64,000 nt of DNA from Trypanosoma brucei (lineage: Eukaryota), in assembly GCA_000002445.1 (NCBI GenBank), contig CH464491.1:1-64000 (forward strand), written 5' to 3'. Positions 1 through 23,900 of the stretch are shown here, piece after piece. Made by a program: the position numbers and the translations under genes. The notes below the pieces were generated by a model. That model saw only the letters and a program-made list of their open reading frames with translations. It was not told the origin of the DNA and did no database searches. Within the stretch, counting starts at the first letter, position 1. Each line of letters begins with the position of its first letter.

Positions 1-285
1 TACCCCTAACCCTAACCCTAACCCTAACCCTAACCCTAACCCTAACCCTAACCCTAACCCTAACCCTAACCCTAACCCTAACCCTAACCCTAACCCTAAC
101 CCTAACCCTAACCCTAACCCTAACCCTAACCCTAACCCTAACCCTAACCCTAACCCTAACCCTAACCCTAACCCTAACCCTAACCCTAACCCTAACCCTA
201 ACCCTAACCCTAACCCTAACCCTAACCCTAACCCTAACCCTAACCCTAACCCTAACCCTAACCCTAACCCTAACCCTAACCCGAA
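1..285. repeat. Telomere: tandem (CCCTAA)n on + strand, i.e. the TTAGGG G-strand is on the - strand running toward position 1; window position 1 is the chromosome terminus side
   Basis: About 47 perfect CCCTAA hexamers read directly from positions 3-282 before the unit changes to the 29-bp repeat. Confidence 0.97.
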
Positions 286-1578
286 CCCGCTAACCCGAAA
301 CACCCTAACCCGAACCCGCTAACCCGAAACACCCTAACCCGAACCCGCTAACCCGAAACACCCTAACCCGAACCCGCTAACCCGAAACACCCTAACCCGA
401 ACCCGCTAACCCGAAACACCCTAACCCGAACCCGCTAACCCGAAACACCCTAACCCGAACCCGCTAACCCGAAACACCCTAACCCGAACCCGCTAACCCG
501 AAACACCCTAACCCGAACCCGCTAACCCGAAACACCCTAACCCGAACCCGCTAACCCGAAACACCCTAACCCGAACCCGCTAACCCGAAACACCCTAACC
601 CGAACCCGCTAACCCGAAACACCCTAACCCGAACCCGCTAACCCGAAACACCCTAACCCGAACCCGCTAACCCGAAACACCCTAACCCGAACCCGCTAAC
701 CCGAAACACCCTAACCCGAACCCGCTAACCCGAAACACCCTAACCCGAACCCGCTAACCCGAAACACCCTAACCCGAACCCGCTAACCCGAAACACCCTA
801 ACCCGAACCCGCTAACCCGAAACACCCTAACCCGAACCCGCTAACCCGAAACACCCTAACCCGAACCCGCTAACCCGAAACACCCTAACCCGAACCCGCT
901 AACCCGAAACACCCTAACCCGAACCCGCTAACCCGAAACACCCTAACCCGAACCCGCTAACCCGAAACACCCTAACCCGAACCCGCTAACCCGAAACACC
1001 CTAACCCGAACCCGCTAACCCGAAACACCCTAACCCGAACCCGCTAACCCGAAACACCCTAACCCGAACCCGCTAACCCGAAACACCCTAACCCGAACCC
1101 GCTAACCCGAAACACCCTAACCCGAACCCGCTAACCCGAAACACCCTAACCCGAACCCGCTAACCCGAAACACCCTAACCCGAACCCGCTAACCCGAAAC
1201 ACCCTAACCCGAACCCGCTAACCCGAAACACCCTAACCCGAACCCGCTAACCCGAAACACCCTAACCCGAACCCGCTAACCCGAAACACCCTAACCCGAA
1301 CCCGCTAACCCGAAACACCCTAACCCGAACCCGCTAACCCGAAACACCCTAACCCGAACCCGCTAACCCGAAACACCCTAACCCGAACCCGCTAACCCGA
1401 AACACCCTAACCCGAACCCGCTAACCCGAAACACCCTAACCCGAACCCGCTAACCCGAAACACCCTAACCCGAACCCGCTAACCCGAAACACCCTAACCC
1501 GAACCCGCTAACCCGAAACACCCTAACCCGAACCCGCTAACCCGAAACACCCTAACCCGAACCCGCTAACCCGAAACA
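283..1578. repeat. Subtelomeric 29-bp repeat array (unit CCCTAACCCGAACCCGCTAACCCGAAACA, ~45 near-identical copies), a telomere-derived repeat of the kind adjacent to T. brucei telomeres
   Basis: The unit was read off directly and is essentially perfectly repeated from 283 to ~1578. The last unit ends ...cccgaaacaGCGAGCC. Confidence 0.9.
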
Positions 1579-2600
1579 GCGAGCCTTGAGTGTCGAACAA
1601 AAATAGCCGCAAAAAAAGACGCTGTCGGGCGATAGGAAAAAAAGCTGTTAAAAATTTTAACAATGGTGAAAAATGTGCAAAAAATCAAAGTCCAAAAAAA
1701 ATTTTTAAAAACTGGGAGGCGAAAAAAAAAAACAGTCAAAAATTCAAATTCGAAACAAGTAAAACAAGATTTTAAAAAAGCTAGACGCGAAAACCGATGT
1801 TAAAAATTAAAAATTAAAAAGTGGAGGTGCGTGCGCGTCGGGGGGCGGGGGGGAGGAGGGTTAGGGTCCGCATAACAAAATTGCCGCTGCATGGCTGAAA
1901 AAAAAATAACCAAAAACCAAAAAATTAAATAAAGATTAGGAAAAAAAAATTAAAAAAATTCAAAGGCCAAAAAAAAAAAATTAAAAAAAAGAGGTGCGTT
2001 TGCGGGGGGTGCGCGGGGGGCGGGGGGGAGGAGGGTTAGGGTCCGCATAATAAAATTGCTGCTGCATTGCTAAAATGAAAAAAATTAGCAATTTAAAAAA
2101 AATGTGAAAAAATTCGAAATGAAAAAAAAAAAATTGAACGTCAGGGCGAAAAAAAAGTGGAGGTGCTTGCGCTAAAAAAAAATAATAAATCGTGAAAAAA
2201 AACTGGAGGTGTCGCGGCGGCGCTGGGGGTGCGGGGGGGGAGGAGGGTTAGGGTCTGCATAACAAAACAGCCGCTGCACCGCTAATTTAAAAAAAAAAAT
2301 GTAAGCAAACAAACCGTCAAAAATTCAAATGCAAAAAAGTCTAAAAACAATGCGAAAAATTAAAAAACAGGTGCGGGGGGTGCGCGGGGGGCGGGGGGGG
2401 AGGAGGGTTAGGGTCCGCATAACAAAAGAGCCGCTGCATGGCTTTAAAAAAAAAAAACCACAAACCGCGCAAAAAACCGAAAACTAAAAAAAATGATTAG
2501 AAAAATGTATGAAAGAAAATCACATCGCAATAAAAAACAATAAAAGCAGCCGCTGCATCACTAAAAGACTAAAAAAACGAAAAAAAGAAAAGAGGAAAAT
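1579..2600. repeat. A-rich spacer containing 4 copies (plus one partial) of a ~75-nt G-rich element, core GGGGGGGAGGAGGGTTAGGGTCCGCATAACAAAA(N)GCCGCTGCA. Copies lie at ~1826-1896, 1993-2073, 2208-2285 and 2370-2445, with a partial at ~2548-2565
   Basis: The same GC-rich core, with embedded GGGTTAGGG, is seen four times at 160-215 bp spacing, separated by poly(A)-rich sequence. Confidence 0.6.
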
Positions 2601-2603
2601 TAA

Positions 2604-2720
2604 CCCTAACCGAGTAACCCTAATCCTAATCCTAACCCTAACCCTAACCCTAGCCCTAATCCTAAGCCTAACCCCCCTAACTAACCCCCCTAACTAACCT
2701 ACCTAACTACCCCCCCACCA
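2604..2720. repeat. Degenerate interstitial telomere-like tract (CCCTAA / CCTAAT / CCCTAG / CCTAAG variants decaying into CCCCCCTAACTAA units)
   Basis: Read directly: ccctaaccgagtaaccctaatcctaatcctaaccctaaccctaaccctagccctaatcctaagcctaacccccctaactaacccccctaactaacc. Confidence 0.7.
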
Positions 2721-2851
2721 CCTACAAAAATTAAAAAACGGGAAAAAAAAGAAAGAAAAAATTTTTTAGTTGCCAGAAAAAAAATTTACAGACTCAGAAT
2801 TTTTTACAAACTTACAAAACACACAGTTCAAATTTTTCGGTGGAATTTAAA

Positions 2852-2886
2852 GATGTTAAAATATATCAGAAGTTTTCAAGTAGCAA
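2852..2886 (-). promoter_or_regulatory. Conserved VSG 3'UTR elements: 16-mer (TGATATATTTTAACAT on - strand, one mismatch to TGATATATTTTAACAC) and the upstream 8/9-mer TTGCTACTT separated by GAAAACTTC
   Basis: The reverse complement of + 2852-2886 is TTGCTACTTGAAAACTTCTGATATATTTTAACATC. This matches, from memory, the conserved 3'UTR block of T. brucei VSG mRNAs, which is required for VSG mRNA stability. Confidence 0.85.
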
Positions 2887-2911
2887 AAATTTTAAAAAGA
2901 GGGGGTAAAAA

Positions 2912-4348
2912 TTAAAAAAGCAAAAATGCAAGCAAAAGAGGGGCTTTGTTAATGACAAAAGAATTGCTTGCTGTGGTGTTTGTAGTTCCAGGTTTCTCAT
3001 CTTTCCCTTCTGTTTCTTGGTTTGCTTTTTCTGCTGCTTTTTGTTTCCCTTCCTCACTCAATGTGCACTTTGGTTCTTCTTTTTTTGTTTCATCATATTT
3101 GCATTTTTTGTCAGCATTGCATGTTTTTGCATCTTTTATTTCGTTACATAGTTGCTCTGGGGTTTTATTTTTACCCTTGGATTCAGTGTCATCCAATCTT
3201 GTTTGTAGCTCTGTCAATCTCTTGCTCAGTTGCAATTGGTAGTGATACAGTATTGTAAGTAGCGTCTCTGTATCTTCTATTGCCCCCAATGTCGTTGGCT
3301 CAGCTTGTTTGCCTGTTTTGGCGGGTATCGGAAATTTCTCAATTTTTGCTATGAACTCTTTCCACTTTGCGTCGTCTTTTCCGCCAAAGTAAGAGGTCAC
3401 TTGTGCCTCTACATCTGCGTCGGCTGCCTCTGCTTTTTTAAGGTTGACTGTTCTGATCGCTTCGCTGACTAAGTTGTAATTTTTGATTTCGCCAGTAGTG
3501 TTGGTGAAGGCTGGATCCTCTGCTTGCGGTGGGAGCTTGTTTTTCGACCATGCGTTGTACCACGCCGGGTGCGTATTGGCGTGCTCTTGGGTCATTGTTT
3601 GTACGCTGTTTATGCTCAGCGCGTTGGCGCTGTTTGGAATTGTTAGGTAGCCGTCTAGCACCTTGAAGTTTGCTGCCAGCGCTGAGCCGTCTCCTAGGCC
3701 ATTGTTTGTGTGGCCGCTGGCAAGTGTGCACTTCCCGCTTGAGTGCTGTTCGTCGTCTCCGGATATCCTATGCGCCAGCTGGGGAAAGCCGTTGGCAGTT
3801 ATATGGGTTGGTTGTATGCCGCTGCTGCTTGCCCCTGTTAGTTTCAGTTTGCATTCCGTGCCGCCAAGCCTGTTTTGAGTTATGGTCGCCGCCGCTGACC
3901 CGGCATTTGTTAGCAGGCAGCCGTCGCTGCCGCCTTGGTTTACGTTAGACCATAACGATAAGTATTCATCTACATGCCCTTTGAGGTACGTTGCCGCGCT
4001 TGCGGTTTCGATGGCTGCTTGTATTGACGTTGTCCTTAGTTTAGAAAGGGAGGCCTGCACCTTGCTGCTGTAGTAAAGTTCTGCTAAAGCCGTTGGCGTT
4101 GCTTCTTTTGTTCCTGCCATCGCTAAGCCATAAATTTGTGCCCTCAGGGTGGCGCGCTGCATGAGTTCGACTTGGCTCGTTGCCGATTGTAGGTCTGAAA
4201 TTGCTTTGTGCGGTTTGCTATCCAGCTCTTCGGAGAGTCCACAAAGCGGTTTCCAGAAAGCTGGAAGCATCCCCTTTTGCGCCGTCGCGTCTACGGCCGC
4301 TAGTTGCTGCATTATTAAAAGCGCAACAGCAAACAAATAGTTGATCAT
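2912..4348 (-). CDS. VSG: Variant surface glycoprotein (VSG), 478 aa. N-terminal signal peptide (MINYLFAVALLIMQQLAAVDA), A-type N-terminal domain with 4 Cys, and a single 4-Cys C-terminal subdomain (CNEIKDAKTCNADKKCKYDETKKEEPKC). The 17-residue GPI signal NSFVINKAPLLLAFLLF follows a Ser omega site, which is class/type 2. A candidate spliced-leader acceptor AG lies at ~4435/4436 (- strand), preceded by a pyrimidine-rich tract at ~4459-4495
   Basis: Intact ORF. The canonical 3'UTR 16-mer and 8-mer lie immediately downstream. The GPI signal is almost identical to the type-2 VSG tail SNSFVI(H/N)KAPL(F/L)LAFLLF. It is transcribed toward the telomere. Confidence 0.9.
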   Translation of the reverse strand: MINYLFAVALLIMQQLAAVDATAQKGMLPAFWKPLCGLSEELDSKPHKAISDLQSATSQVELMQRATLRAQIYGLAMAGTKEATPTALAELYYSSKVQASLSKLRTTSIQAAIETASAATYLKGHVDEYLSLWSNVNQGGSDGCLLTNAGSAAATITQNRLGGTECKLKLTGASSSGIQPTHITANGFPQLAHRISGDDEQHSSGKCTLASGHTNNGLGDGSALAANFKVLDGYLTIPNSANALSINSVQTMTQEHANTHPAWYNAWSKNKLPPQAEDPAFTNTTGEIKNYNLVSEAIRTVNLKKAEAADADVEAQVTSYFGGKDDAKWKEFIAKIEKFPIPAKTGKQAEPTTLGAIEDTETLLTILYHYQLQLSKRLTELQTRLDDTESKGKNKTPEQLCNEIKDAKTCNADKKCKYDETKKEEPKCTLSEEGKQKAAEKANQETEGKDEKPGTTNTTASNSFVINKAPLLLAFLLF

Positions 4349-6119
4349 TGCTTGATTACCTTCGCCGGTGCTTGAAATTTACGAAGAGTGTCAAATCATG
4401 ATGTTGCAAGGATTGAACGGACATTTTTTTTAGCCTGCATCTCGCCGGTATGTTAGTTGTGTGAACAAAAGAAGAGAGCTGTAGAGCAGTAGCACCGTTT
4501 TTACTCTGTTTGTACACTGGCTTCTTACCAGGTTGAGTTGCTCGTAATCCATGTGCTGCTTAGCGCCTCTGCGATAGCCGTTGTAACTTCCATTACTTAT
4601 CCTGAAAACAATCTCTGCCTCATTTTCCCCTTCACCTATATGCTCTTCTAATGTTAAATACTTAGAATACCCCATAGGCGTGCCATAGCGCTTGTCAAAA
4701 GCGCACACCTTCTCGGAATCGACAGCCTTCCACCATTATGTTTCTCAAAATCAGTTCGGTTGCTAACTAAGGTCGTTGTCTTATTCAACGTTGTTGAAAA
4801 TTTAGTTACTTTGCCCGCCGTGCAATTTTTGTCGTTAGCGCATTCGGTTGTCGTCCTGGGTTGGTGTTGCTTGTGGTGGCGCCGTTTGTCACCGTAGAGC
4901 CACCTACAGAAAAAGAAACAAAAGGAGAAAAGTTAGAAATATAGAAGCTTCTGCGTTCTTTTCTGTTAAATGAAATTTAGAACAGACTTTTCCTTTCTTT
5001 CTCCTGGATTAAGTAAAAGACACTCAGGTATGGCATAGAACTTTCACTTTAAAAGGTAATTTGTATCATTTTATATTTATGCCATCTAGAGTATCAATAA
5101 TTTCTACACTTCACTCTCTTCTACCATAATTCAAGATGCCTGTGCATTTTTCACTCGCCAAAATCATGTAACGCTGCCACTTTCTCGAATAAAATTGATC
5201 TTCTGTTTCTTATTGTTAATCATTTTGTTTCGGTGTAAGGCGCTTCGCAATAATACTATGTAATGTATGGCCCCAAAATTCTACCCTTGCTGTTTTTGTT
5301 CTGCTAATACTGGACGCTAGCTCTCCATTCGCTATCTTTATTATGAAAACTACTCAATTATTAAATAAAATAATCTCTGGAAAACCCCTAGTAGGGAATT
5401 TAAGGCGTGTCACCATTGTTCCTTTCCTTTTTATAGCATTAGTGCGTAGGTTGATACATGTGCTATTTCAAGCAGGTTCAACGTCTTTGTTCCTCTTTTT
5501 CTGTAAATAATAATCCATTAGCAATCCCAGGTATTAAATCCGCGTAGCGACCATATTATATAGAAGCTATCAAGTGTTAGTCATTATTACTATATCTGAT
5601 TAAAAGATATTTTGACATTACCTCACACTTAGCCAATTCTTTCTTGTTGTTACTGCTTCTCACATATACATATTAAGATCTACAATCAGATTGAAAACAT
5701 CATTGTACACCATCTCTACAGCAGAATATATCCATTTCTGCTGGGGATAGGGCGTATTGTGTCATCCTTCTATATTATCTTTTCTATACGACGCTGTCAT
5801 ACATAGAGGTTTCATTCCATTTTTAATTGCTTTTTTTACCGTCTACTGTCATTTTTTGCAAATAAAGTAGCGGTCCTATTTAGGCTGTACACTGGATTTT
5901 CTCTCTCCATCATTTTCTTTTCTATCACTTCCTTGTGTGTAATAATTCCCATATTCTATTTACATCTCTTTATATATGTCTATTTGTGTTTCATTTAATA
6001 CTATTTCTCGTGCTCTCCTTCATACTGTCCCACACACATATTCCCATCGCACACTTTCCAATTTTAAAGTGCCCCTACTGTTTCCGATCGTTCAGTCTTC
6101 AACAACACTCTTAACATAA

Positions 6120-6562
6120 TATTAGTATGTACACACTCATAATACTCTCCTATTATTATTATTATTATTACTGCTCTTATTATAATATTCGTATATACAC
6201 ACACTCACAACACTCTCCTATTATTATCATTATTATTATCATTATTATTATTATCATTATTATTATTACTGCTCTCATTATAATATTCGTATATACACAC
6301 ACTCACAACACTCTCCTATTATCATTACTATCATCATTATTATTACTACTCTTATTATAATATTCGTATATATACACTCACAACACGCTCCTATTATTAT
6401 TATTATTATTATCATTATTATTACTGCTCTTATTATAATACTGGTGTATACACACTCACAACACTCTACTATTATTATCATTATTATTAGTATAATTATT
6501 ACTGCTCTTATTATAATATTCGTATATACACACTCACAACACTTTCCTATCATCATTATTAC

Positions 6563-6595
<33 letters not shown>

Positions 6596-6670
6596 TGCTC
6601 TTATTATAATATTCGTATACTCACACTCACAATACACTCCTATTATCATTATTATCATTATTATTATTAT
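6120..6670 (-). repeat. 70-bp repeat array: about 7 imperfect units of 70-95 bp, each a (TAA)n/(TTA)n triplet run followed by GAGTGTTGTGAGTGTGTGTATATACGAATATTATAATAAGAGCAGTAAT on the - strand
   Basis: The unit recurs at ~6127, 6195, 6290, 6365, 6445, 6520 and 6600. Its orientation matches that of the VSG, as in expression sites and silent VSG cassettes. Confidence 0.85.
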
Positions 6671-7994
6671 TTTAGAACACCCGTGTCAAGGGCATATAAA
6701 ATAGCTATGAAAATATCTTTTCTAAAAACGTTATTGATTATTTGGATGAATAAGCAAAATGGCACGTATTCTAACGCCTTTTGTATGATTGTTGTGGAGA
6801 ATAACCCTGTATGGAAAAGAAACAAGTGCACATATGAAACCTTCCGCCAATATTAACTCTCTGATCTTGCGTCACACTCCTCTTCAATTCTCTCCAGTTT
6901 TAGCGAATATTTGCATTTTGTGTGAACCCACACTCATCATAAATGTTATATGTCGCTTTGGAATTTCCTGCTGTTAAACTTCGTCAGTAGTGCGTCCACA
7001 TTTTTTACTTTTGCACAGAAAAACCGATGCGAGTATACCATCAACTTTTAAATAGTTTTTAAAAAAAACTGTGATTATGGTTTCAAAATCGTTGGAGAAC
7101 TTTTATGATTCTTAAGTCATGGGTGCCGAAAAACATGAGAAATGAAAGTCAACCTTCTCTTTCTTTTTAGTAAAAAAAAACTAGCCTTTTTCATTTCCCT
7201 AATGTGCTTCCGCGATCCACAATCTGCTCAAGAAACTTCTGAGGTCATCACCAGTATTTCTCTATCATCCTCTGTAAGGTTAGTTGCAAATTAAAAGCCC
7301 CTCGACTTCAAATCTTACAGCAAACTTTCCTCCATTCTAAGGTCTTTACTGCGTGTGAGTTCGAGCACAGAGTCTTGCTAAACACTTAATTTCTTGTAGC
7401 TATTTTTTGGGTTTGACAAGTCTTCTCGCCATGTTAAGTCCGTATGTCTCTCTTTTTCACATCTGCTCCATCAATCTTGAAATGATTCGTCAGCTAAACT
7501 GCTGCTACAATGACTTTCTATGGATTTATAAAAAAAATTGCACTATTTGCGGTGCGAACCGTACCGGACCCAATGCCCAGCATCAACATTGATAAGAAGG
7601 TTATCTAATTCTTTCTCAGAAGTATTAAAAGTTTAGCATCCAACCACTTTTTTTTTACCATTTATATCCGTTGCGCACTGTTAATTCTACCACAAAAACG
7701 GTAGAAAGCAATACAGAACTTCAGCAATTCGTCAGTAGCAGACCGATGATGTAGCCATTACCGAAAGCGCAATTAGTTGTATAAAAGGTAATTAGAGCCA
7801 CCGTTGTCACTACCAGAACCCCCGCTGTTGCCCCTCGACCATGTTTTCGCAGTTGTTCACGCATTCAGCATTACTTACCCCAAACAAATGAGAAACATTC
7901 CGTGATATTCGTCTGTCGGTGCTTGCGTTCCGATCAGTAGCCGCCGCAGGTGTTACATTTTCACTATCTTCCGTGGGTTGCGGCATCATGAACA

Positions 7995-13315: not shown

Positions 13316-14235
13316 TTAGGAGCAAAGGAAGCATAGTGCAGTGGAAAGCACCACTGTATGACTTTTGTGCGCAGCACTTCTCCCCCATTTTACACTGCTT
13401 TCTGCGGACTCCTGCCCATCCAAATTGCCTGTGCCCACCTCCCGTGCATTTTCCCTGTCAGGCCCCGATGTTAAGCTGCTCAGTTGCGGCCGCGTCACGT
13501 GGCTGTTATCATGGTGTGTTATTTGCAGTCCTGAAATATCTTCTCCGTTTTCGGTCGGTTGTCCCCCTAAAGTTCCCACTCCTTGTGTATCTTTTTGCCC
13601 AGGTCCCGGTGCTGCATCCGCTGGCGGTGGCTGCGCCACACTCCAGCTATCGTGTCCTGGCACTTGCGTCCCTGAAATTGTATTTCCTCCTTTTCCAAGT
13701 TCTCCGCTTTGGCCTTCCGAAGCTCCCGGTTCCTGTCCTCTTTGAACCACTTTCTGCTCACTGCCTTCACCCGCTGGGGACGTCGCGGCGGCAGTACTTG
13801 GGAGATTTCAGATGTGTGCGCGATGTGATCGTTTCTTGCGCTTCCAACTACTCTATCTTGTGGTTTTACGCCCACTTTAGGAAAGTCTTCTTTAGAGCCT
13901 GAAATCGATTGACTAGCCCCCTCCGCAGCCGAACCCGGTGTAGTACTCTTTTGTGTTCCTAGCTTCCCGGTGTCTTCGGACGTCGCACTTGCTGGATGGC
14001 TGTTACGAGATAAGGGAGAAGTAGGCTGTCTTCCCGCACTGCTTGGACCGACAGCGCTTTCACTTTGCGAAGAACAGTGGTGGTTATTTGAGCGGTCCCA
14101 GTATCCGTCGCACTTGCTGTTTTCGGTTGTTAATTGTATTGAAGCTTCCGGTTCAGCAAATAAAACAAGCAATAACAGCGTCAAAAATGGAACTGTTGCA
14201 AGTCCGAGCATCGTTTTCTTAAGAGGTTCAGACAA
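13316..14235 (-). pseudogene. Frameshifted member of a two-gene family of low-complexity predicted secreted/GPI-anchored proteins. The N-terminal 222-aa frame is 13567..14235: a signal-peptide-like MLGLATVPFLTLLLLVLFAEPEAS, then ...CDGYWDRSNNHHC..., then a Ser/Thr/Pro-rich region. The C-terminal hydrophobic tail (...HKSHTVVLSTALCFLCS) lies in a different frame, 13316..13750
   Basis: The two overlapping minus-strand ORFs together mirror the single intact paralog at 20125-20964, so a frameshift or sequencing error splits this copy. Confidence 0.5.
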
Positions 14236-17200
14236 AAATTATGCAAAGCAACACTAAAAGCAAAAAAAAAACAACAAACATGTATCAATCTATTCACGTC
14301 ACACGATAAAAAATTATTATCAGACTCGGAATTAGAACAAATAAAAATTAATATGTTACATGTAGTTACGATTGCTTCCTCGCATGAAGAGGTTTCAGAG
14401 AGATTATGAACGTCCCTTACATCACCTCAAGCGCCTTTTCACTACATTTTTTGATATTATGTAGACGTGTCGGTGCATTTGAATACTGCCTTTACACGTC
14501 TTTCTTTTAATGCTACTCAGGGGCATCTCATGATTTCTTATTTTACAAATTCACCGCTACTAAGAGCAACTAAAAGCAAATTAGACAATATGTCTTTTGG
14601 CAACTTCATCTTTCTATCAACTTAATAAGAAGACATACATTTAGTACATTTTTTTAGATCGGAGATGAAAGGTGTTGTTAATGTTTCCTTTATCGTACGT
14701 CCGCAGTTCCTTTGCCGCTCCAATGTGGTTGGGTTAAATCGTCGTTTCAGTTAGTTGCTGCAGCCATAACTATATATATATTTTTTGCTCTCTCTTCTTA
14801 AATACTCTAACCAAGTTTCCAAGGATAGGTTTCGCTACTCCTGTCTCTTGTGCTTGAATTGGCCCAATTGTAAGTTGCGCAAAATTCACGGTTTGTGTGA
14901 ATGCAACGCGTTTGCCTTAATATGCTTGTTTTCCCATATTCAATAACAACAATATCAGCATATGCATTTTTTATTTTAAAAATTATAATGTTTTTTCACT
15001 ATTTAGCTTCGTTTGCCTTCCTGTAGTTTTCGCTTTGATCAACTTGTCCAACTACCTATAGGTGCAAGCACATTCTTTCTATTTTAAAAGCATCGAAGTT
15101 TTCCACTTTATGCACCTTATTTAAAAGACATAAAAAACACCACTTCTTTGTTATCTCTACAATGTCTTCTGCGCTTGTGCGTTGATGACAGTTTTATTTT
15201 ATTAAGGTTAAAAAGTAAATAGTGAGCCAGTGTACACAACCAAAAGAAAAGTATTGGTATAAATTGTGGAATAATTATGGCAGAAATCCGTCCTTTTGTT
15301 GTTCTTGTGATTAAACCCGTCTTAGTTCTGATAGTTGTTTGCTCATTCGGGTTTTCGTTTATTCTTGTTTTTGTGGTTCGTCTGATCCCTTTGTTGATAA
15401 TTTTCTTCTCGCGCTTGACGTTAAGTTTGTATTTGCGTTGGTGGCTGTGTCTATGTTTTGCCTATGGTGGCGTTTGTGTCAGCGTCTGCATTTTCGCTAA
15501 TTTCTTCAACTTTCAGCAGGTTTTCGAGATCCCCAAGTCATTTGACACAACTTGTACTGCCTTGAATTGACAGTTTTGGATATACCATACAAATCTCATT
15601 GGTTTTTGATTCCCGTCCATCGCAGACGCTTAGCATCTTAGTTTTGTCCCCTCATTAGGTATGGTATTCACGACCACTTGATATTTGGCGTCTTTTTATA
15701 TCCGTTAATGGTAGTTTTCTCTTATCCCCAAATACAGTCAGCGTCTGCAGATCCTCTTTATGATCCATTTTCCATTTATTTTGAAACTCATTCCATGTAC
15801 TTCGTGGCTAGCAGAGGCCTTCCATATTGCATAGTCACATCATTCTGCATTTCCTGTATAATAAAAGTCTTTGCGTGGTGATTGTTGGCTTTCTCCCCGC
15901 ACAAACAGAGGAGGACTTCTAGAAAGGTTTTTCTTGTTGCGGTAGCCCTGTCTCGATTGTCTTTCCCACAGTCCAGTTCTCTGTATCGGTTCCTTACTAT
16001 TTCAGTTAAATCATCACTGTTTGATCAAAACATGATATCTTTAACCATTTCCCCAGGGAAGCTGCTTCTGCGACCTCCTTCACTCTTTTAATCGACCCGC
16101 CTATACGCTGTGTTAAACTAACAAGTTCACATAGTGGTTTAAACTCCTCCTCGTTAACTATGCCTTCCCCCGCGATGTACACATACGCCACTACCCAAAG
16201 CATGTCTGTCATCTATGCCGCTGATTTGTTCCATATTTTTGTTCTGCCTCCGCTAACTAGACTTCTTTTTAAAGGATTAGTTGAGAAAAAAATAAGTTTT
16301 TTTCTACCCATTTTGCTCCCAAAAAAGTTTCAAGCAAAGCATGCTCATACACATTTCTATTGAGAAGGCTATCTTCCTATTCTAGATATTTTTAATTGAA
16401 TAGTTGGCACTCCTTGATGAACTCGTATTTCGTGCCCTGTAGGAGTCGTGCCATTAAGATTTTGCAGTAAATACGCCGAGCCCACTCACAGGTACTAGAG
16501 GCACAAGGACTAGTCCCACATATAACCGTACAATTTTATTAACAATACTGCCAGATATTTTGGGTTGTTAGTCCTGCGTCGTGGTGACGAGTTCAGTGGA
16601 ACCCAGTTCGGGACTCTCACGGTTATTTCCGTGGAGCAAGCACGGAAGTGCGGCAACACTTGATGCACTTTTCAACCCTAAAGATATTACGTTTTCCTCG
16701 TGTGAAGGCAACTGTTTGTGTTAGTTGGTTCTCAACGTCAAGTAAAAATTGAGTTGCTATTATTTTTTTTTTCGTTGATCACAATTTATAGCAGCGTGCC
16801 GCCTTCCGATCCAGAGCAGCAGCAAAGACTTCCCAGAACCAGGCGCACCAACATGTGATGCGTTTCCGCTTTGTATACACTCATCCAAGTGGGCATGCTC
16901 CATTGTTGAGTGAATTAAATGTTTGAAGCTCCTACGCATCGAACAGTTTCCACACAAGTAAAATATTTCACCGCATTAGGGCAATAATAAGCACAGGCAC
17001 AACATTTCAGCAAAAGCTCAGTGACGATTTTTCCCAACTTTAGTATCTGAGAATAAGGTATGCTTCCTATGCTTTATTGAGTCGGGTTATCATGTCATCC
17101 AGCGAAGCAAATTAATGCCGGAAGTGATAAAATTGGGTGTTCATTTTATGAGCGGCGACTTTCGCACCCGTTGGTACTATTTCATTTTCCTCTAATATTG

Positions 17201-20124
17201 ACTATTACCACTCGTTACCTATGACGGTTTTCCCTGGGTTGGTTTTAGTGGTGTCGGGCTCTTACTTTTGATGTCAGCTCTCACGATTCATCCACGAAGT
17301 TTCAATACGTTCATTATGGTGGATCCGTTGCCGCAATCATTTCATCCATTGGTAAATTTGAATTTCTTGTCTTTTTCTTCTCTCTTATTCCCCGAGTTCA
17401 CGATTACTTTCGGCGGCTCCAATAGCCATCAGCGGCGGTATACCGCTTCACTGCAAGCCCTAATACACTGCATGACCCTTAACTTTCTCCGTTCTAGGTG
17501 TGTGCCCACAGGATCTTCTTTGTGCATGCGGCTTCCTGTGGCGATGCGGATGGATGCCCCAGATTTTCTCCAAGAAACCTTTCACTTCACATCGACCGCA
17601 ATATTTCGCACCTCGTAAATCCATGCCAACTTTCCAACTCCTTCCTACATATCGGTTACCCACGCTTACCCAACGGAACATGACGGTTCCAGTTCTCCAT
17701 GATAAACTTGAGTCACCTGAAGCCGAAGTCCTAATGTGATACCACACACCGTCGTAATTGGCAACAGTTCTCACTGCGTATTTTCTCCCCTTTGTTTGGT
17801 GCTTTATTTTCAAGCCAAACAGAGTGAAGAGGGCTATTCCCACCATTCACGCTGTTGAACGTGTTCTGTCCGTCACGATCGACACATCACACAAAACAAC
17901 ACTACAATCCAAAACCTTTGAATTATATTTGTACAGAATGCACTAAACGGTGTAGCTCTTCGGCATTTCATGATGCACTTTGCCCTTGGTTCCGAATCTA
18001 ATACAACATTTTATTACATGATTGTGTGTCAGGTTCTCAAACGTGGTCAACCGTGCTTTCTTCACTGTTTGTTTCCCTTTTCCTTCACTCATCATTCTTG
18101 CGACGATGCTAGAGTAATGACTTTCTATACTTGCTGTGTTTTCATCATCTGGGAAGGCTGAGAGACATTATGCCCCTGTTGTGCACCTCACCCATGCTAA
18201 CGACAGTCCCAAGGAGAATGCCCTTAATGCTTTTCTGTTTGTCCTCACTCCAGTGCTAACGCCGCCTTTTGCTCCATAGGCCCCGTCTGGGATTTTTTTA
18301 TACATCTTGAATACGCTTCAATGGGCCCAATATGGTTTACACGATAAAGCATAGTTGCGTTAATGTCTTTCGTTCGTTCACTCCCTTTCCCGCTTCCACG
18401 AACTCGGTTAGTTGAGTGCCATCTCGCCAAAGAAAGTGCATTCCGTCGTATCAATGAAAACTTTGAAACAGGTTCTCGAGCCGGTTTATTACGTATACCA
18501 ACCGGTCTCGGATGGTTTGTCGCTTTTACACACTGCAACAGACCTTGGGGAACCACGACACGGCGGCGACCACCTGTTACAAGTAACCTCTGTATTTGTG
18601 TCAACTGCTCGCTTGGACATATCCTCCACTTCGTTTCATCCCAGTGTGGGAAACGCTAAGTGTGGCTCGCGTTTGAGAGTTACGAACAATTTCTACTAAC
18701 GACACGGCATGCCTGCACCCAATCCTATACGTGTTACTATTTAACTTTGATCGTTCCTTCCTCTTTTCCAGTGGTTTGCAACTGCAAAACATCCGGTACC
18801 TCCATTTTGTTTTCTCAACCGCACCTGGGATGATTGCATTAACTGAACCACTTGTGTTCCATGGACATGGTGCTCTGCTGAATTATCCACTTTTAAACTC
18901 CCCCGATCAGTTTCATCATTATATATTTCCGACGGCGTAGAGGAGGAAACAACACGCTGTCTAGCCTCACGACTCGCCACCACCCACAACTTCGATTGCC
19001 GATGTTAAGAACTTACTTAAAGTAATGCATTTCTCTTTCCTGTAAACTTTAAACGACACTATACTGCTAAAGCAATAAATCAGATAATTGTGAAACCTAA
19101 TATTTGGAAAATAATAGGGAGAACACAACGCCCGCTTCCGAGCCTGTTTCTCAAGCACATATTGTAAAGCTATGTGTGTTGTGAACTCAACCACAAAAAT
19201 TAAAAAAGATCTCGTAGCGTATTTAGCAGCGTCTCCTCGCTACACCATTATTACGTTTGGCGCTTAACAGTGCACGAAGGTTAAGGTTGTTTTCCGCCAC
19301 TATACACCACTTGTTTCTTCAAGTGAGCTGCGGTTGAGCGGTTACAAATCAGAAAACCAACGACACCCCAGTGGTGTTCGCTTCAGTAAGCAATCATTGT
19401 TAAATCTCTTAGTGTAGTTGTAGTGTTGTTACCATCTTCGTCAATTTCTTTCGTCACATTCGCTCAATTTTGTAATTTGTTTACGAGTAATTTAACTTCA
19501 TCACACACCAGCACCTATAAATTTTATTTACATTATAATTCGTTAGCATTTAAATAATTAACGCATTTAACTGTTACTCACATCAGTAAAAAAATATCAT
19601 AAGTTTATTATTGGGGTTTTATGTATTATTAACGAAGTGGTCAGCGCATTTAACAAAATTTAAGTTTACGATCCCGTTAAGTTCGCCTTTAGTAAGCTGC
19701 CTTCAGCCTTTCTGCAAGAGCTCTAACTTTGGTTATGCGGCAACTTTCATTATACTTTCTTGAAACTTCATCAGCTACAACTTCCTTAATACCATTGAAG
19801 CCAGTTTACCTTTTCTTACCTATAATCATTTCATTGAGCATGTCCACTGTCAGTTAGCTTGTGGCTTTTAAAACCTTAACTTATTTTTCCTCCTTCAGAA
19901 TTATTCGACTTACTTCTGCACGTTACCCACAACTATATTATGGTCATGCTCTCCTCTTCCAACATCGTCCTCTTAAATATTACGCCGTTATTACGGTCCA
20001 TAAGTATTTCTCTCACAAAAGAAGTTGCAGACTAGTTTCTGATCCTCGTTCTAACCTTTTAGTTACGCAGCGTCCGCCTTACTTGGCATTTTTAAGCTTA
20101 TGCAGAGACTCACAGCAACGAGTT

Positions 20125-20964
20125 TTAGTAACTCAGGAGGCATAACGCTGCAGAAAGTATCATTGTATTCCTTGTATGTGCAACGCTTCTTCTCCCTTGT
20201 GTACTGTTTTCCGTCGAATCATGTTCCTCCAGATCGCTTGTAGCCGCTTCCTGTTTACCTCCCTGATCAGGCTCCGAGACTGCGCTCCTCGGTTGTGGAT
20301 GCGCTAGACCCTCACCACTTTCCCTTGTTAGCGGTGGTGGTGTGGTGTTCCTTCCCTGCCTCTGCCCTTCATGACTTTCACTTCCACGATCTCGTTTTTC
20401 ACCTTCAGACACTTCGTTTGCTCGCACGGTTGCCTGTCTGCTTTCTTCTACCTCTGTGGTTGCTGGCTCCTCACGCAAAGACAGGCCAACTGGTCCGTCG
20501 CTCCGCTCGACCTGCCCATCAATTCCAGTGGCACTCGCGGCGTCACTTTGTGGCTGACCCTCTTGAGGGGCACCCAAAGAACCAGACCGTGTTCCGCTGG
20601 AAATGCTTAAAGCTGGAGATGGCACCTGCCTTCCTCCATGCTGGGCGCCGGTTGCGCTGCCACGTACTTCTCGTCTTTCCGTTTGCGGCTGCAGAACAGG
20701 GAGTTGGGGAGACGCATCTCCACTAGGCCGATCCTGACGTGAAGGCAGCAATGAACACGGCACCCCTTTGCCGTCACGGTCCCAATATTGAATGCATCCG
20801 CTTCCGGACGAAACCGCTACCCCCACTACACTCGTTGTCGCGGAAGCGCTTCGCGACTCAGCTGGCAGGAGACACGTTATAAGTGTCAGCAACAGCACTG
20901 TTGTATTTTTGAACATAGTGTCACTTAGCTTGTTAACGCACAAAATTACACAAAACACTAACAA
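20125..20964 (-). CDS. Paralog of 13316-14235. A predicted secreted Ser/Gly/Pro/Glu/Gln-rich protein. Its probable start is the Met at ~20916 (MFKNTTVLLLTLITCLLPAESRS signal peptide). It carries the conserved motif C-IQ-YWDRDGKGVPC and a C-terminal hydrophobic GPI-signal-like tail (...NTMILSAALCLLSY). The family is unidentified. An ESAG9-like relationship is a guess only
   Basis: It shares its N-terminal signal, the CxxYWDR(x3-5)C motif, the low-complexity middle and the C-terminal hydrophobic tail with the upstream copy. Confidence 0.5.
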   Translation of the reverse strand: MLVFCVILCVNKLSDTMFKNTTVLLLTLITCLLPAESRSASATTSVVGVAVSSGSGCIQYWDRDGKGVPCSLLPSRQDRPSGDASPQLPVLQPQTERREVRGSATGAQHGGRQVPSPALSISSGTRSGSLGAPQEGQPQSDAASATGIDGQVERSDGPVGLSLREEPATTEVEESRQATVRANEVSEGEKRDRGSESHEGQRQGRNTTPPPLTRESGEGLAHPQPRSAVSEPDQGGKQEAATSDLEEHDSTENSTQGRRSVAHTRNTMILSAALCLLSY

Positions 20965-23900
20965 ACAGGGGCCTCCAATAGATATATACCAATTCGATTA
21001 AGTATTTATTTGTGAAGAATAATCTGATTATGATAGATATCCTTTTCTTATCACTTTGTGGATGCTGGTCACTGCTGGTCACACATGCTCGGTACTTTCT
21101 CCATTTTATTTTCACAATTGAGTTTTTCTGGTTATTTTAATTTTAACCTCAATAAAAGTAACTCAGTAAAATAAGATGATGATCGTAATACGAAATGTGT
21201 TCCACCATTCGTATAATTATTATTATTCATTATCTATTATTTATTATTATTTCTCTTTAAACAAAGATAAACATCTAACACAACAATGACACCAACAACG
21301 CAAAACGCCCCCACAAGTCGTCGATAACCTATATAAATCGAAATGAAGTACAGATATAGAGCTCCAATTACGCAAAACAAAACCTTCCCCCCTTTCCTCA
21401 TTATTTCTAAAATTCAGATGAATTAAGTGAAAGGAAACAGTCACAAAACTAACTCTTATCTCCAAATGATAATAAAAACAGAGGTAAATTCAAATTTGGG
21501 TTTTTGATATACAGAACCCTATTACGTGAAACAATTAGTCACACGTATGACGGACAAAAGGTAACAACGAAACACCCCACCAAACCAGTTGCTTTAAAAC
21601 GCAAAAAATACAACTCGGCAGGTAGGTCGTGTGAGTTGTATTTTTTGCGTTTTCTTTTTGTTTTAATCCTGTAAATAACGTTATTGCTTCCTCATATTTA
21701 CATAGTTTCATCATGCAGTACTCCAAAACTATAAACGGCACACACTTAAGCACCTTCACTTTTAAGCCACCTCGTTTTGTTAATACAAAAGAAACGGTTA
21801 GTTTAAAGGCGGCAAATTATCGGTACCGAATATACTGCGCCCTAGGGGTAAACGCCTTAACTGCTACACGGCAAAAGCAGGAAATGTCAGGAAAGGAAAT
21901 TTAAAAAAAACGGTTTTGCAGTCCTGTTCAACAGTAGACCAGTTCACAGAAAGGGGGAAATTAAAAAATTACATTAAGTTAAAAATTATTCTTACCTCCT
22001 TTGTTCTTTCTTACGCAATATCATTAGGGGAAAATAAATGATCTTTTTGTTTTGAGGCGATAAGGTTTGACCAATGATTTCGTAAGCTCCGATTAACCTT
22101 CCCAGCCAACACGCTCGAATCTACAGTCCTCTGGGCTTCGAATTTAAAAAAATGCCTTACCTCTATGCACACGTTCCCATCAACCACGACCGACCCTAGA
22201 CGAGACAGCTGCTCGTACAGAGTTCACGACGAAATACCCAAACGGGTTCGATCTCGTGATACACCCTTTTACAAAACCGAGGTGTAATTCGCTTTATCAA
22301 ACACTTTAAAGGCAATGACCGCAGAGAATTTAATGTACTTCCTACAAATGACGCCAAATTTAACCCCGAACTTAAATGGCAGCATCAAACTAATTAGATC
22401 CCAATTCATAATATTCAGTAATAAAACTTTTAACAAACTCACGAACACAACCGCTATTCACTACGAGGTTTCTTTGATTGTTATCGCCAAAATCTTCAAT
22501 GATTCTTAACGTTTTAAAATGGGACTTCAACCGATTAAACTCCCATATAAGAACTGAATTGTTAAAACGGAAACTGCATAATCATAACAACCGCAGTTAC
22601 ACCAATCCACGGTAATGAGAACCTCATGCACCCTTCATTTCTTGAAGCTCAACAACCAGTACCCACACTTGGTACACACCACCTTAACTTTTTTAAAAAA
22701 CATCCATATGGTATATAACGAATCATTCTGCGTATTTACACAATTCATCAGAATCGGGACTCTTGTTATCATGCAATACGTTATAACGATAACCCCATTC
22801 TTCGTTATCAACATAACAAGAAATCTCAAACAAATTTTGGACAGCCTTTTTACAAGACAAAATTCAGAGGCAGCTGCGACACGATAAAGAGAAACATTTA
22901 GATAATTATAGAAAATGTCGTCACTGAAAAACTCAGCAATGCGCAAGATAACAGTATGCAACTAGCACACCTAACCTTTGGTAAAATACACAAAACCACT
23001 CTGCAACATTCACCGAACATCGAATAAGAAGGAATTCAAGTTTATCAACTCTTCGTTCAAAGCTGTTCTACCTCATCCATCTTGCTACAGATTACTCTGT
23101 TAGACAAAAACGCTCAGAGTTTTCACAAAAAGTTTTCCTCTGACCTTGCATAATCCAACATCCATTTTTCAGCACCATTGTCATACCTTTTTTGTGGCCC
23201 GGTTACATTCACCTATAACAGAATCACTTTATTCCCTTGTCACTTCATACAAGCACTTAAAGAAGCCTTCAAACAAAATTTTAATATCCTCCGCTGCGAC
23301 CGATTGATTACCGGTGTAATCTACCCACTCATCACTCATATTTTATGCTTGAAATTCACGCTACCATCAAACGACTAAGGCTTATTTCACGAACAAAAGC
23401 ACAACTGCCAAAGAGCATAGGAATGACGTCATGAACATGAATACAGTAGGTTCTGGCTCTTTCATGTCCGCAATATTGCCACCAATCACCCACATTTAGG
23501 TTAAACATGTCAATGACAAAATAATCGAAATTGCTTACAAAATTGTGGGTCCCATCACTCACACTTCTTTGGGACGCCACTAAAGCAAAAATCTTAGTTC
23601 AAACAATTTGAACCAGAAACCTCCCACAACAACATGTCACTGACTAATAGACACGTAAAAAACACATAAGAAAAAGAGAAATAATCCATAGTTATATCGA
23701 CACGCAACGCAAAAATCAATATGTTTCCAGCCTGAACACGGGAAAACTCTACAATAATTTCCCCTTCCCTTTACAAAAGTTAACCAATGTAAAGAAAAAT
23801 ATTTATAAATACTCCTGGTTAAAGGCACAATAATAATATATGTATGCACGAATATACAACAACATGATTTCCTTACGGCACTGCCTGCCCTATTCCCACC

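What the first reader, a model, noticed from the sequence alone, without database searches (positions are those of the whole stretch)
13316..20964. Paired, unclassified genes for low-complexity predicted GPI-anchored/secreted proteins upstream of the VSG; one is frameshifted
The two minus-strand genes are 13316-14235 and 20125-20964. Both encode proteins with:
- a cleavable-looking signal peptide;
- a shared CxxYWDR(x3-5)C motif near the mature N-terminus;
- a long Ser/Gly/Pro/Glu/Thr-rich, presumably O- and N-glycosylated, middle;
- an almost identical C-terminal tail (HTRNTMILSAALCLLSY vs HKSHTVVLSTALCFLCS) typical of a GPI-addition signal.
The telomere-proximal copy needs a frame change to reach its tail, so it may be a pseudogene or contain an assembly error. 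I cannot place the family. It is not VSG, ISG, procyclin, ESAG4 or transferrin-receptor-like. ESAG9-like is only a weak guess. It is a small surface/secreted family sitting in a VSG-proximal subtelomere.
Basis: seen in the sequence. Interest (0 to 1): 0.6.

Follow-up and report, generated by a model that had tools for sequence, protein, structure and literature searches.

The report
Two ESAG9 genes beside telomeric VSG
The two "unclassified" genes are ordinary members of ESAG9, a known Trypanosoma brucei family of secreted or surface proteins made in the transmission (stumpy) stage; one copy is intact and the other has a one-base frameshift.

Summary
Two minus-strand genes (CDS 20125-20916 and 13316-14211) share a signal peptide, a C-x2-YWDR-x5/6-C loop, a long Ser/Gly/Pro/Glu/Gln-rich disordered middle and a near-identical hydrophobic C-terminal tail.

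They are not unclassified. A profile of the two genes retrieved 17 full-length proteins of 250-302 aa from T. brucei TREU927 and T. equiperdum. Those looked up are named ESAG9 or ESAG. An HMM built only from those named proteins matches copy B end to end (166 bits) and the repaired copy A (242 bits); 400 shuffled controls reached at most 6.4 bits.

The window is a chromosome end. Its VSG is 100% identical to a TREU927 VSG on a 5.26-Mb record. The order is core genes, two GRESAG4 cyclases, ESAG9-B, ESAG9-A, 70-bp repeats, VSG, telomere, all on one strand.

The frameshift in copy A is a single missing G at 13786. The T. equiperdum orthologue has that G. The frame downstream of it is still open and still ESAG9-like, so this is either a very recent pseudogene or a base-calling error.

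In T. equiperdum both orthologues are broken in other ways.

ESAG9 is a well-studied family: stumpy-enriched, repressed by REG9.1 and apparently secreted. The novelty is low.

The parts
20125..20916 (-). ESAG9 copy B: intact CDS, 263 aa plus stop (ATG at 20916, stop at 20125-20127)
   Evidence: ORF; translation. ESAG9-only HMM: 166 bits, HMM positions 1-259 of 260. 90% identical to P0001. Nearest named relatives are P0004 (37%) and P0006 (36%).
20842..20916 (-). Copy B N-terminal signal-peptide-like segment (residues 1 to about 25; hydrophobic core 5-19)
   Evidence: Kyte-Doolittle 9-mer maximum 2.78, with several (-3,-1) cleavage candidates at residues 21-26. AlphaFold2 helix at residues 3-15. 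No dedicated predictor was available.
20755..20796 (-). Copy B Cys-loop motif CIQYWDRDGKGVPC
   Evidence: Pattern search. Both Cys are nearly invariant in the family alignment. Small beta-hairpin at residues 44-52 in the model.
20188..20751 (-). Copy B low-complexity Ser/Gly/Glu/Arg/Gln/Pro-rich middle (residues 56-243), predicted disordered
   Evidence: Composition. pLDDT below 50 for residues 56-243 with no secondary structure.
20128..20187 (-). Copy B C-terminal tail SVAHTRNTMILSAALCLLSY. It fits a GPI-addition signal: small omega residue, 5-residue polar spacer, 12-residue hydrophobic end.
   Evidence: This is the most conserved block of the family (ENSTQ...S.AHK.H..ILSA.L). AlphaFold2 helix at 246-262.
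13786..14211 (-). ESAG9 copy A, 5' part (142 codons, ATG at 14211), in the first frame
   Evidence: ESAG9-only HMM: 107.7 bits, HMM positions 1-142. 80% identical to T. equiperdum P0002, which UniRef names ESAG9.
13786..13786 (-). Frameshift site. One G is missing (window TGCCGCC-GCGACG versus T. equiperdum TGCCGCCGGCGACG), so base 13786 is shared by the last codon of the first frame and the first codon of the second.
   Evidence: DNA alignment; coordinates.
13316..13786 (-). ESAG9 copy A, 3' part (156 codons plus stop at 13316-13318), in the second frame. It includes an internal duplication of about 40 aa and the conserved tail SAAHKSHTVVLSTALCFLCS (13319-13378).
   Evidence: ESAG9-only HMM: 124 bits, with HMM positions 181-222 matched twice. 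Tail located.
14074..14112 (-). Copy A Cys-loop motif CDGYWDRSNNHHC
14254..14271 (-). Copy A putative trans-splice acceptor: T10 tract followed by AG, about 44 nt upstream of the ATG (inferred)
   Evidence: The block TTAGTGTT..TTTG..TAATTTT is shared with copy B.
20958..20972 (-). Copy B putative trans-splice acceptor: CCCCTGTTTGTTAG, about 42 nt upstream of the ATG (inferred). The T. equiperdum allele has a longer T tract.
25133..35583 (-). Context: two tandem receptor-type adenylate cyclase (GRESAG4/ESAG4-type) genes upstream, 25133-28840 and 31849-35583
   Evidence: Pfam Peripla_BP_A-cyclase and Guanylate_cyc hits.
1..6685 (-). Context: telomere (CCCTAA x47 and a 29-bp repeat x45, positions 4-1578), A-type VSG at 2912-4348, and about 8 copies of 70-bp-type repeats at 6076-6685
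   Evidence: The VSG is 100% identical to a TREU927 VSG.

Best explanation
The two genes are paralogous members of the ESAG9 family (expression-site-associated gene 9; cell-surface phylome Family 2), which is specific to T. brucei and its close relatives. They sit at the end of a Trypanosoma brucei chromosome, between two GRESAG4 adenylate cyclase genes and a telomeric VSG.

Shown here:
- Full-length homology of both genes to named ESAG9 proteins.
- The family architecture: a hydrophobic N-terminal signal-like segment, a Cys-x2-YW-x(6-8)-Cys loop, about 190-230 residues predicted to be disordered, and a conserved C-terminal tail.
- The same strand as every other gene in the window, reading towards the telomere.
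- A pyrimidine tract plus AG about 40-45 nt upstream of each ATG.
- A 1-nt deletion that breaks copy A.

Inferred from the literature on the family, not tested for these copies:
- The genes are transcribed as part of the polycistronic unit.
- The mRNAs are kept low in slender bloodstream and procyclic forms through their 3' flanks and the RNA-binding protein REG9.1.
- The mRNAs rise in stumpy forms.
- The product of copy B enters the secretory pathway and is released, or is attached by a GPI anchor added at the tail (omega candidate Ser244).

Copy A as written can give only a truncated product: 142 ESAG9 residues followed by 72 out-of-frame residues. That product lacks the tail. The alternative is that the missing G is a sequencing error.
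For: Homology:
- A profile of the two genes against 1.84 billion representative proteins gave 21 hits. Seventeen are 250-302 aa and match along their full length.
- An independent HMM built from 15 named ESAG9 proteins only scored copy B at 166 bits (HMM 1-259 of 260) and repaired copy A at 242 bits. Four hundred shuffled controls scored at most 6.4 bits.
- The family alignment shows the shared signal region, the two Cys, the YW and the tail.
- The orthologue of copy A is named ESAG9 in UniRef.

Anatomy:
- Hydrophobicity and omega-site analysis.
- AlphaFold2 places helices only at residues 3-15 and 246-262 and leaves 56-243 at pLDDT below 50.

Context:
- Telomere, VSG and the cyclases.
- Only two ESAG9 loci in the window.

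Family biology:
- All eight annotated TREU927 ESAG9 genes are up 2- to 30-fold in stumpy forms, and seven of eight have signal peptides (PMC2771046).
- The family is repressed via its 3'UTR and REG9.1, is assigned to Family 2 and is T. brucei-specific (PMC5380359).
- The proteins appear to be secreted, and the genes are frequently found outside expression sites (PMC5617986).
- A chromosome-11 ESAG9, Tb927.11.18660, rises (logFC 2.13) after REG9.1 RNAi.
Against: - There are no expression data for these two copies.
- The short 3'UTR motifs published for ESAG9 co-regulated transcripts are not present exactly in either 3' flank.
- The 3' flanks of A and B share little beyond about 110 nt.
- No SignalP or GPI predictor could be run.
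- Jensen et al. describe ESAG9s as probably secreted with no predicted transmembrane domain and do not mention a GPI anchor (PMC2771046).
- dN/dS against T. equiperdum is about 0.53 for both copies, which is weak constraint.
- Both T. equiperdum orthologues are disrupted, so this locus may be dispensable.
Confidence: 0.88

Rival explanations
1. Copy A is a functional ESAG9 gene, and the missing G at 13786 is an assembly or base-calling error rather than a real mutation.
For: - The frame after the shift stays open for 156 codons to the conserved stop.
- That 3' part still scores 124 bits against the ESAG9 HMM.
- The lesion is a single base in a GG dinucleotide, and T. equiperdum has GG.
- dN/dS of copy A (0.53) equals that of intact copy B.
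Against: - GG is not a long homopolymer.
- Frameshifted and degenerate ESAG9 and VSG genes are common in T. brucei subtelomeres; for example, Tb927.11.17880 is annotated 'ESAG9, degenerate'.
- The T. equiperdum orthologue is also non-functional, through an independent 2.2-kb deletion.
- Copy A lacks the ENST sequon that many family members have.
Confidence: 0.4
2. The whole locus is a decaying relic. Neither copy is used, and copy B is intact only because too little time has passed.
For: - Copy A is frameshifted.
- In T. equiperdum, copy B carries CAA to TAA at codon 77 and copy A has lost its 3' third.
- dN/dS is about 0.53.
- The locus is 6% diverged between the two genomes, against 0.7% for the neighbouring core.
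Against: - Copy B keeps a 263-codon frame, the two Cys, the YWDR and the tail.
- A second intact allele or paralogue, P0001, is 90% identical and also 263 aa.
- dN/dS is below 1 even though one lineage is a pseudogene.
- A splice-acceptor-like tract is conserved.
- ESAG9 genes as a family are expressed (PMC2771046).
Confidence: 0.15
3. The genes belong to another T. brucei-specific surface family, or to a separate 'ESAG9-like' group, rather than to ESAG9 proper. Candidates are Family 5 or Family 7 (230-270 aa, signal peptide plus a C-terminal hydrophobic helix).
For: - The size and architecture resemble the description of Families 5 and 7 in PMC5380359.
- Jensen et al. list 'ESAG9-like' genes in addition to the eight ESAG9s (PMC2771046).
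- No Pfam model exists to arbitrate.
Against: - The match to named ESAG9 proteins is end to end, with E values of 1e-47 and 1e-70.
- Every family-type hit that carries a name is called ESAG9 or ESAG.
- Families 4-7 lie next to strand-switch regions in tandem arrays (PMC3605285). This window has no strand switch, and the genes lie by a telomere.
Confidence: 0.04
4. The ORFs are chance open frames in low-complexity DNA.
For: - There is an antisense ORF of 219 aa over copy A.
- The composition is biased.
Against: - Homologues were found with E values down to 1e-106.
- The locus is syntenic in T. equiperdum.
- The motif was absent from 200 shuffles, and an ORF of at least 290 codons appeared in 0.5% of shuffles.
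Confidence: 0.01

Closest known systems
ESAG9 family of Trypanosoma brucei (cell-surface phylome Family 2). Examples are Tb927.1.5220, Tb927.5.120, Tb927.5.4620 (ESAG9-EQ), Tb927.7.170, Tb927.9.7370 and Tb927.11.18660.
   Same: - Full-length sequence homology.
- Size of 256-302 aa.
- Signal-peptide-like N-terminus, Cys-YW-Cys loop and disordered variable middle.
- Conserved tail (ENSTQ..S.AHK.H..ILSA.L).
- Subtelomeric or VSG-associated position.
- Restriction to Trypanozoon.
   Different: - Nothing structural differs.
- Copy B is only 29-37% identical to the named TREU927 and T. equiperdum members, and copy A at most 39%. That is normal for this very diverse family.
- Copy A is frameshifted.
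- Expression was not tested for these copies.
T. equiperdum OVI TEOVI_000013800 (P0002; UniRef name 'ESAG9 protein') and the uncalled neighbouring copy on contig CZPT02000199.1
   Same: - It is the orthologous locus, colinear with window 24195-13661 at 94% identity.
- P0002 is 80% identical to copy A.
- The copy B orthologue is 96% identical at the DNA level.
   Different: - T. equiperdum copy A has the G that the window lacks. However, it loses its 3' third to a 2.2-kb deletion and ends after 193 aa.
- T. equiperdum copy B has a premature TAA at codon 77.
T. cruzi mucin-associated surface proteins (MASP)
   Same: - Same design: conserved signal-peptide and GPI-signal ends around a variable low-complexity centre.
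- Jackson et al. cite a proposed remote ESAG9-MASP homology (PMC3605285).
   Different: - No T. cruzi protein reached E <= 1e-3 in the exhaustive profile search.
- The only hits outside Trypanozoon were long repetitive proteins; the one with a source name is a bacterial peptidase and the other two are unnamed.
- The resemblance is therefore one of architecture; homology was not demonstrated here.
VSG and procyclin GPI-addition signals
   Same: - The tail has a small omega residue (Ser), a short polar spacer and a hydrophobic end of about 12 residues.
- The putative propeptide is 19 aa, within the 17-23 aa range of VSG signals as I recall it.
- Tail hydrophobicity is similar to that of the window's own VSG: 2.78 and 2.4 against 2.76.
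   Different: - There is no sequence similarity to the VSG.
- Pfam Trypan_glycop is absent.
- GPI attachment was not shown for these proteins here, and the literature I could read describes the family as secreted.

Membership tests
ESAG9 (cell-surface phylome Family 2) | Full-length sequence similarity to proteins annotated as ESAG9 | tested here: met
   HMM built from 15 named ESAG9 proteins: copy B scores 166 bits over HMM positions 1-259 of 260, and repaired copy A scores 242 bits. Shuffled controls reach at most 6.4 bits.
ESAG9 (cell-surface phylome Family 2) | N-terminal signal peptide (seven of eight TREU927 members, PMC2771046) | tested here: met
   Hydrophobic core at residues 5-19 (copy B) and 1-21 (copy A), with (-3,-1) cleavage candidates. 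Helix at residues 3-15 in the model. This is a rule-based test; SignalP was not available.
ESAG9 (cell-surface phylome Family 2) | Conserved Cys pair with aromatic YW between them, near the mature N-terminus | tested here: met
   C41 and C54 of copy B are nearly invariant across 17 members. The motif is present in both window genes.
ESAG9 (cell-surface phylome Family 2) | Conserved C-terminal block (ENSTQ..S.AHK.H..ILSA.L) ending the protein | tested here: met
   Family alignment. Tails are at 20143-20181 and 13334-13372.
ESAG9 (cell-surface phylome Family 2) | Restricted to T. brucei and its close relatives (PMC5380359, PMC3605285) | tested here: met
   All family-type hits that carry a source name come from T. 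brucei TREU927, T. equiperdum or T. b. equiperdum. The three other hits are long repetitive proteins; one is a bacterial peptidase and two carry no name.
ESAG9 (cell-surface phylome Family 2) | Located in or near VSG expression sites or subtelomeres | tested here: met
   The genes lie 9 kb and 16 kb upstream of a telomeric VSG.
ESAG9 (cell-surface phylome Family 2) | Stumpy-form-enriched mRNA, repressed through the 3'UTR and REG9.1 | not testable with these tools
   No expression data were available. Published short motifs are absent as exact matches, but the authors report that those motifs are not sufficient (PMC5380359).
ESAG9 (cell-surface phylome Family 2) | Secretion or release of the glycosylated protein | not testable with these tools
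   Only sequons could be counted: copy B has N190 and N237 in the mature part, and copy A has none.
GPI-anchored protein | C-terminal signal: small omega and omega+2 residues, polar spacer, hydrophobic end with no cytoplasmic tail | tested here: inconclusive
   The pattern fits. Copy B has S-V-A / HTRNT / MILSAALCLLSY and copy A has S-A-A / HKSHT / VVLSTALCFLCS. No dedicated predictor or biochemical test was available.
VSG / VSG-related | Trypan_glycop N-terminal domain | tested here: not met
   No Pfam hit at E <= 0.01 for either gene, whereas the window's VSG scores 356 bits.
Cell-surface phylome Families 4-7 | [quoted passage not shown] | tested here: not met
   All 15 large gene-sized ORFs in the 64-kb window are on the minus strand, and the genes are telomere-proximal and 5.9 kb apart. 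No reference sequences for these families were available for a direct comparison.
T. cruzi MASP | Detectable sequence homology to MASP conserved termini | tested here: not met
   No T. cruzi hit at E <= 1e-3 in the exhaustive profile search. The resemblance is in architecture only.

The most novel reading that the evidence does not exclude
The pair is a conserved, syntenic ESAG9 locus that marks the boundary between the last housekeeping transcription unit and a small, ESAG-poor (metacyclic-type) telomeric VSG site.

Its independent disruption in tsetse-independent T. equiperdum (a stop codon in B, a deletion in A) would then reflect loss of a transmission-linked function. The family-wide conserved tail would be a true GPI signal, making some ESAG9s surface-anchored stumpy-stage proteins rather than purely secreted ones.
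Probability: 0.2. Interest if true: 0.35.

Novelty: already known. Interest (0 to 1): 0.13.

Why it matters
Mainly as a correction. The finding should be filed as ESAG9 and not as a new surface family.

ESAG9 proteins have no known function. They are among the most strongly stumpy-enriched products and are specific to the T. brucei group. An exact map of intact and broken copies at a chromosome end is therefore useful for assigning multi-mapping RNA-seq reads and for choosing copies to tag or delete.

Two small points may help people working on the family:
- The C-terminal tail is conserved across the family and looks like a GPI signal.
- The 'long' subtype arose by an internal duplication of about 40 aa.

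Tried and rejected
- Pfam on both genes, and on 17 family members at E <= 1: no family. ESAG9 has no Pfam model.
- Word-indexed protein search: only one close hit per gene, P0001 and P0002. The exhaustive profile search was needed to reach the rest of the family.
- Exact-protein look-ups of copy B, P0001, P0003, P0006, P0011, the VSG (P0026) and the first cyclase found no record. I could therefore not see how the reference annotation labels these two genes, nor fetch other ESAG9 loci for 3'UTR comparison.
- Barnwell 2010, Monk 2013 and Florent 1991 are not held. Statements about secretion rest on reviews and on Jensen 2009.
- Published 3'UTR motifs (AUGCGAAUAA, GAAAACAUGC, GCGUACAUGA) and the hexamers TCTTAC and TTCTTA: no exact motif match in either 3' flank. 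Only one TTCTTA was found, 1.1 kb downstream of copy B.
- Upstream 3 kb of A against B: no similarity, so the pair is not a recent segmental duplication.
- Structure prediction gave a low-confidence, essentially disordered model. No fold search was run because it would be meaningless.
- The literature search for whether this chromosome-11 VSG is a known metacyclic expression site was uninformative.
- Rejected outright: chance ORFs, VSG-related genes, and Families 4-7.

Full report
**1. What is in the sequence**

The window starts with 47 CCCTAA repeats and 45 copies of a 29-bp subtelomeric repeat. An A-type VSG lies at 2912-4348(-), and about eight 70-bp-type repeats lie at 6076-6685.

Further in are the two genes of the finding. 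Beyond them are two receptor-type adenylate cyclase genes at 25133-28840 and 31849-35583. From 39.5 kb onwards there are housekeeping genes: ETF, a BipA-type GTPase, CPSF100, a UCH peptidase, IFT144/WDR19 and a mitochondrial carrier.

All 15 gene-sized ORFs are on the minus strand, so they read towards the telomere. The VSG protein is 100% identical to a T. brucei brucei TREU927 VSG that lies on a 5.26-Mb record. The window is therefore an end of a large T. brucei chromosome, probably chromosome 11.

**2. Checking the observation**

The ORFs are as described. The ORF lister uses bacterial start codons. The real ATGs are at 20916 (copy B, 263 aa) and 14211 (copy A).

Both proteins have these features:
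- A hydrophobic N-terminus.
- The loop CIQYWDRDGKGVPC in copy B and CDGYWDRSNNHHC in copy A.
- A middle made mostly of Ser, Gly, Glu, Pro, Gln, Thr, Ala and Arg, with only 14% bulky hydrophobic residues.
- A short hydrophobic tail preceded by S-x-A and a five-residue polar spacer.

The motif occurs nowhere else in the six-frame translation and never in 200 block-shuffled windows. A stop-to-stop frame of at least 290 codons arose in 0.5% of shuffles. BLASTP between the two proteins gives E = 2e-10 for the last 66 residues.

**3. Identifying the family**

Pfam has nothing for either gene. The word-indexed search found one close relative for each:
- P0001: 263 aa, 90% identical to copy B, unnamed.

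A profile of both genes searched exhaustively against 1.84 billion representatives gave 21 hits. Seventeen are 250-302 aa and match from end to end. Almost all of the family-type hits carry the ESAG9 name, or the less specific 'ESAG'. They come from T. brucei TREU927 (records of 1.06, 1.61, 2.21 and 3.06 Mb), T. equiperdum or T. b. equiperdum. The three remaining hits are long repetitive proteins; the one with a source name is a bacterial peptidase and the other two are unnamed.

To avoid circularity I built an HMM from 15 named ESAG9 proteins only:
- Copy B scores 166 bits over HMM positions 1-259 of 260.
- Repaired copy A scores 242 bits.
- The two halves of copy A score 108 and 124 bits separately.
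- Four hundred shuffled versions score at most 6.4 bits.

A six-frame scan of the window with this HMM finds only these two loci. Both genes are therefore ESAG9 genes.

**4. Anatomy of the family**

The alignment shows what the family conserves:
- The signal region (M..L.LtL).
- Two nearly invariant Cys flanking Y-W.
- The C-terminal block ENSTQ...S.AHK.H..ILSA.L.

Everything between these elements is variable.

There are two length classes. The long one (296-302 aa) includes copy A, P0003, P0007, P0008 and P0016. It carries an internal duplication of about 40 residues, seen as HMM positions 181-222 matching twice in copy A.

AlphaFold2 on copy B with the family alignment gives a mean pLDDT of 43.9. 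It places helices only at residues 3-15 and 246-262, a small hairpin at the Cys loop, and leaves residues 56-243 below pLDDT 50. This is consistent with an intrinsically disordered ectodomain.

Copy B has sequons at N190 and N237; N237 lies in the ENST block. Copy A has none.

**5. The frameshift**

Alignment with the T. equiperdum orthologue pins the lesion to one missing G. The window reads TGCCGCC-GCGACG and T. equiperdum reads TGCCGCCGGCGACG. In window coordinates this is base 13786.

Restoring the G gives a 298-aa protein of the long subtype. The second frame is open for all 156 remaining codons and ends with the conserved tail. The lesion is therefore either very recent or an error. I cannot decide between these without reads, and I rate a real mutation as somewhat more likely (0.6 to 0.4).

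**6. Synteny and evolution**

The T. equiperdum contig is colinear with window 24195-13661 at 94% identity. It then jumps to 11468, so a 2.2-kb deletion removes the last third of copy A. This is why P0002 stops at 193 aa.

The T. equiperdum copy B has no indels but carries CAA to TAA at codon 77 and was not called as a gene. Both orthologues are thus broken there, while many other T. equiperdum ESAG9s are intact.

dN/dS is about 0.53 for both genes. The neighbouring UCH gene has no synonymous or non-synonymous change. The locus is 6% diverged, against 0.7% for the core.

The two copies share no similarity in their 3-kb upstream regions and little in their 3' flanks, so the duplication is old.

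**7. How it most likely works**

Shown here: family membership, the architecture, the orientation, and a pyrimidine tract plus AG about 42-44 nt upstream of each ATG.

Taken from the literature on the family:
- ESAG9 genes are frequently found outside expression sites and are rare expression-site components (PMC5617986, PMC2567434).
- All eight genes annotated in TREU927 are up 2- to 30-fold in stumpy forms. Seven have signal peptides and none has a predicted transmembrane domain (PMC2771046).
- Their expression is repressed in slender and procyclic forms through the 3'UTR and the RNA-binding protein REG9.1 (PMC5380359, PMC3827541).
- The proteins appear to be secreted (PMC5617986).
- In the REG9.1 RNAi data set, a chromosome-11 ESAG9 on the 'LH_fork' contig (Tb927.11.18660) rises with logFC 2.13. 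That contig has an ESAG1 next to it, which the window lacks, so it is a different haplotype or arrangement.

My inference is that copy B is transcribed as one of the last genes of the telomere-directed polycistronic unit. It would be controlled post-transcriptionally, and its product would enter the ER and be either released or GPI-anchored through the tail (omega candidate Ser244). GPI anchoring is plausible from the pattern but unproven.

**8. Comparison with the known, and verdict**

This is ESAG9, cell-surface phylome Family 2. It is not VSG-like. It does not fit the genomic setting of Families 4-7 (PMC3605285). It resembles T. cruzi MASP only in design, with no T. cruzi hit.

The family has been known since 1991 and has been studied functionally. 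The orthologue of copy A is already named ESAG9. The finding is therefore real but ordinary, and its novelty is 'already known'.

Noticed in passing
L001 (T. equiperdum CZPT02000199.1) 3290-4081 and 10001-10582; window 11469-13660: Both T. equiperdum orthologues of the pair are disrupted, each differently from the window. Copy B has CAA to TAA at codon 77. Copy A has lost its 3' third through a 2.2-kb deletion relative to the window.
   Followed up: yes
window 13661-24195 versus 54579-59275: The ESAG9 region is 94.1% identical to T. equiperdum, while the core region 35 kb further in is 99.3% identical. The UCH protein is identical. Divergence rises sharply towards the telomere.
   Followed up: partly
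window 2912-6685: The telomeric VSG has only about eight 70-bp-type repeats upstream. No ESAG6/7, ESAG1, ESAG2, ESAG3 or ESAG8-type ORFs lie between it and the ESAG9s. The site therefore looks like a minimal or metacyclic-type VSG site rather than a full bloodstream expression site. No promoter search was done.
   Followed up: no
window 7995-8165 (+) and 10342-10512 (-): An inverted repeat of 171 nt, 93% complementary, with arms 2.2 kb apart. ORFs through it share the peptide GKPRASS..MGNTA.LRLRHHTAQGSAASCWD. It is probably a pair of ingi/RIME-type retroposon ends, but that is my recollection and was not tested. The T. equiperdum contig ends inside this repeat.
   Followed up: partly
window 1800-2720: Between the 29-bp repeats and the VSG there are several copies of a G-rich block (GGGGGGAGGAGGGTTAGGGTCCGCATAA...) embedded in A-rich sequence. 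There is also an interstitial TAACCC array at 2601-2716.
   Followed up: no
window 13319-13786; P0003, P0007, P0008, P0016, P0019: The long ESAG9 subtype (296-302 aa) differs from the short one (251-263 aa) by an internal duplication of about 40 residues in the block before the tail. HMM positions 181-222 match twice.
   Followed up: partly
window 13243-13902 (+): A 219-aa ORF runs antisense to copy A. It is most likely a by-product of the codon composition of the sense strand.
   Followed up: no
TREU927 v5 contig Tb927_11_LH_fork (literature): The reference annotation has a chromosome-11 'left-hand fork' with VSGs, an ingi-related pseudogene, ESAG1 (Tb927.11.18650) and ESAG9 (Tb927.11.18660, 8417-9364, reverse strand). 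The window has no ESAG1, so the two homologues or assemblies differ in this subtelomere. Neither window ESAG9 protein is present as an exact sequence in the protein collections searched.
   Followed up: partly
window 39515-41029, 46016-48304, 52719-55943 (-): Three large core ORFs (504, 762 and 1074 aa) have no significant Pfam family.
   Followed up: no
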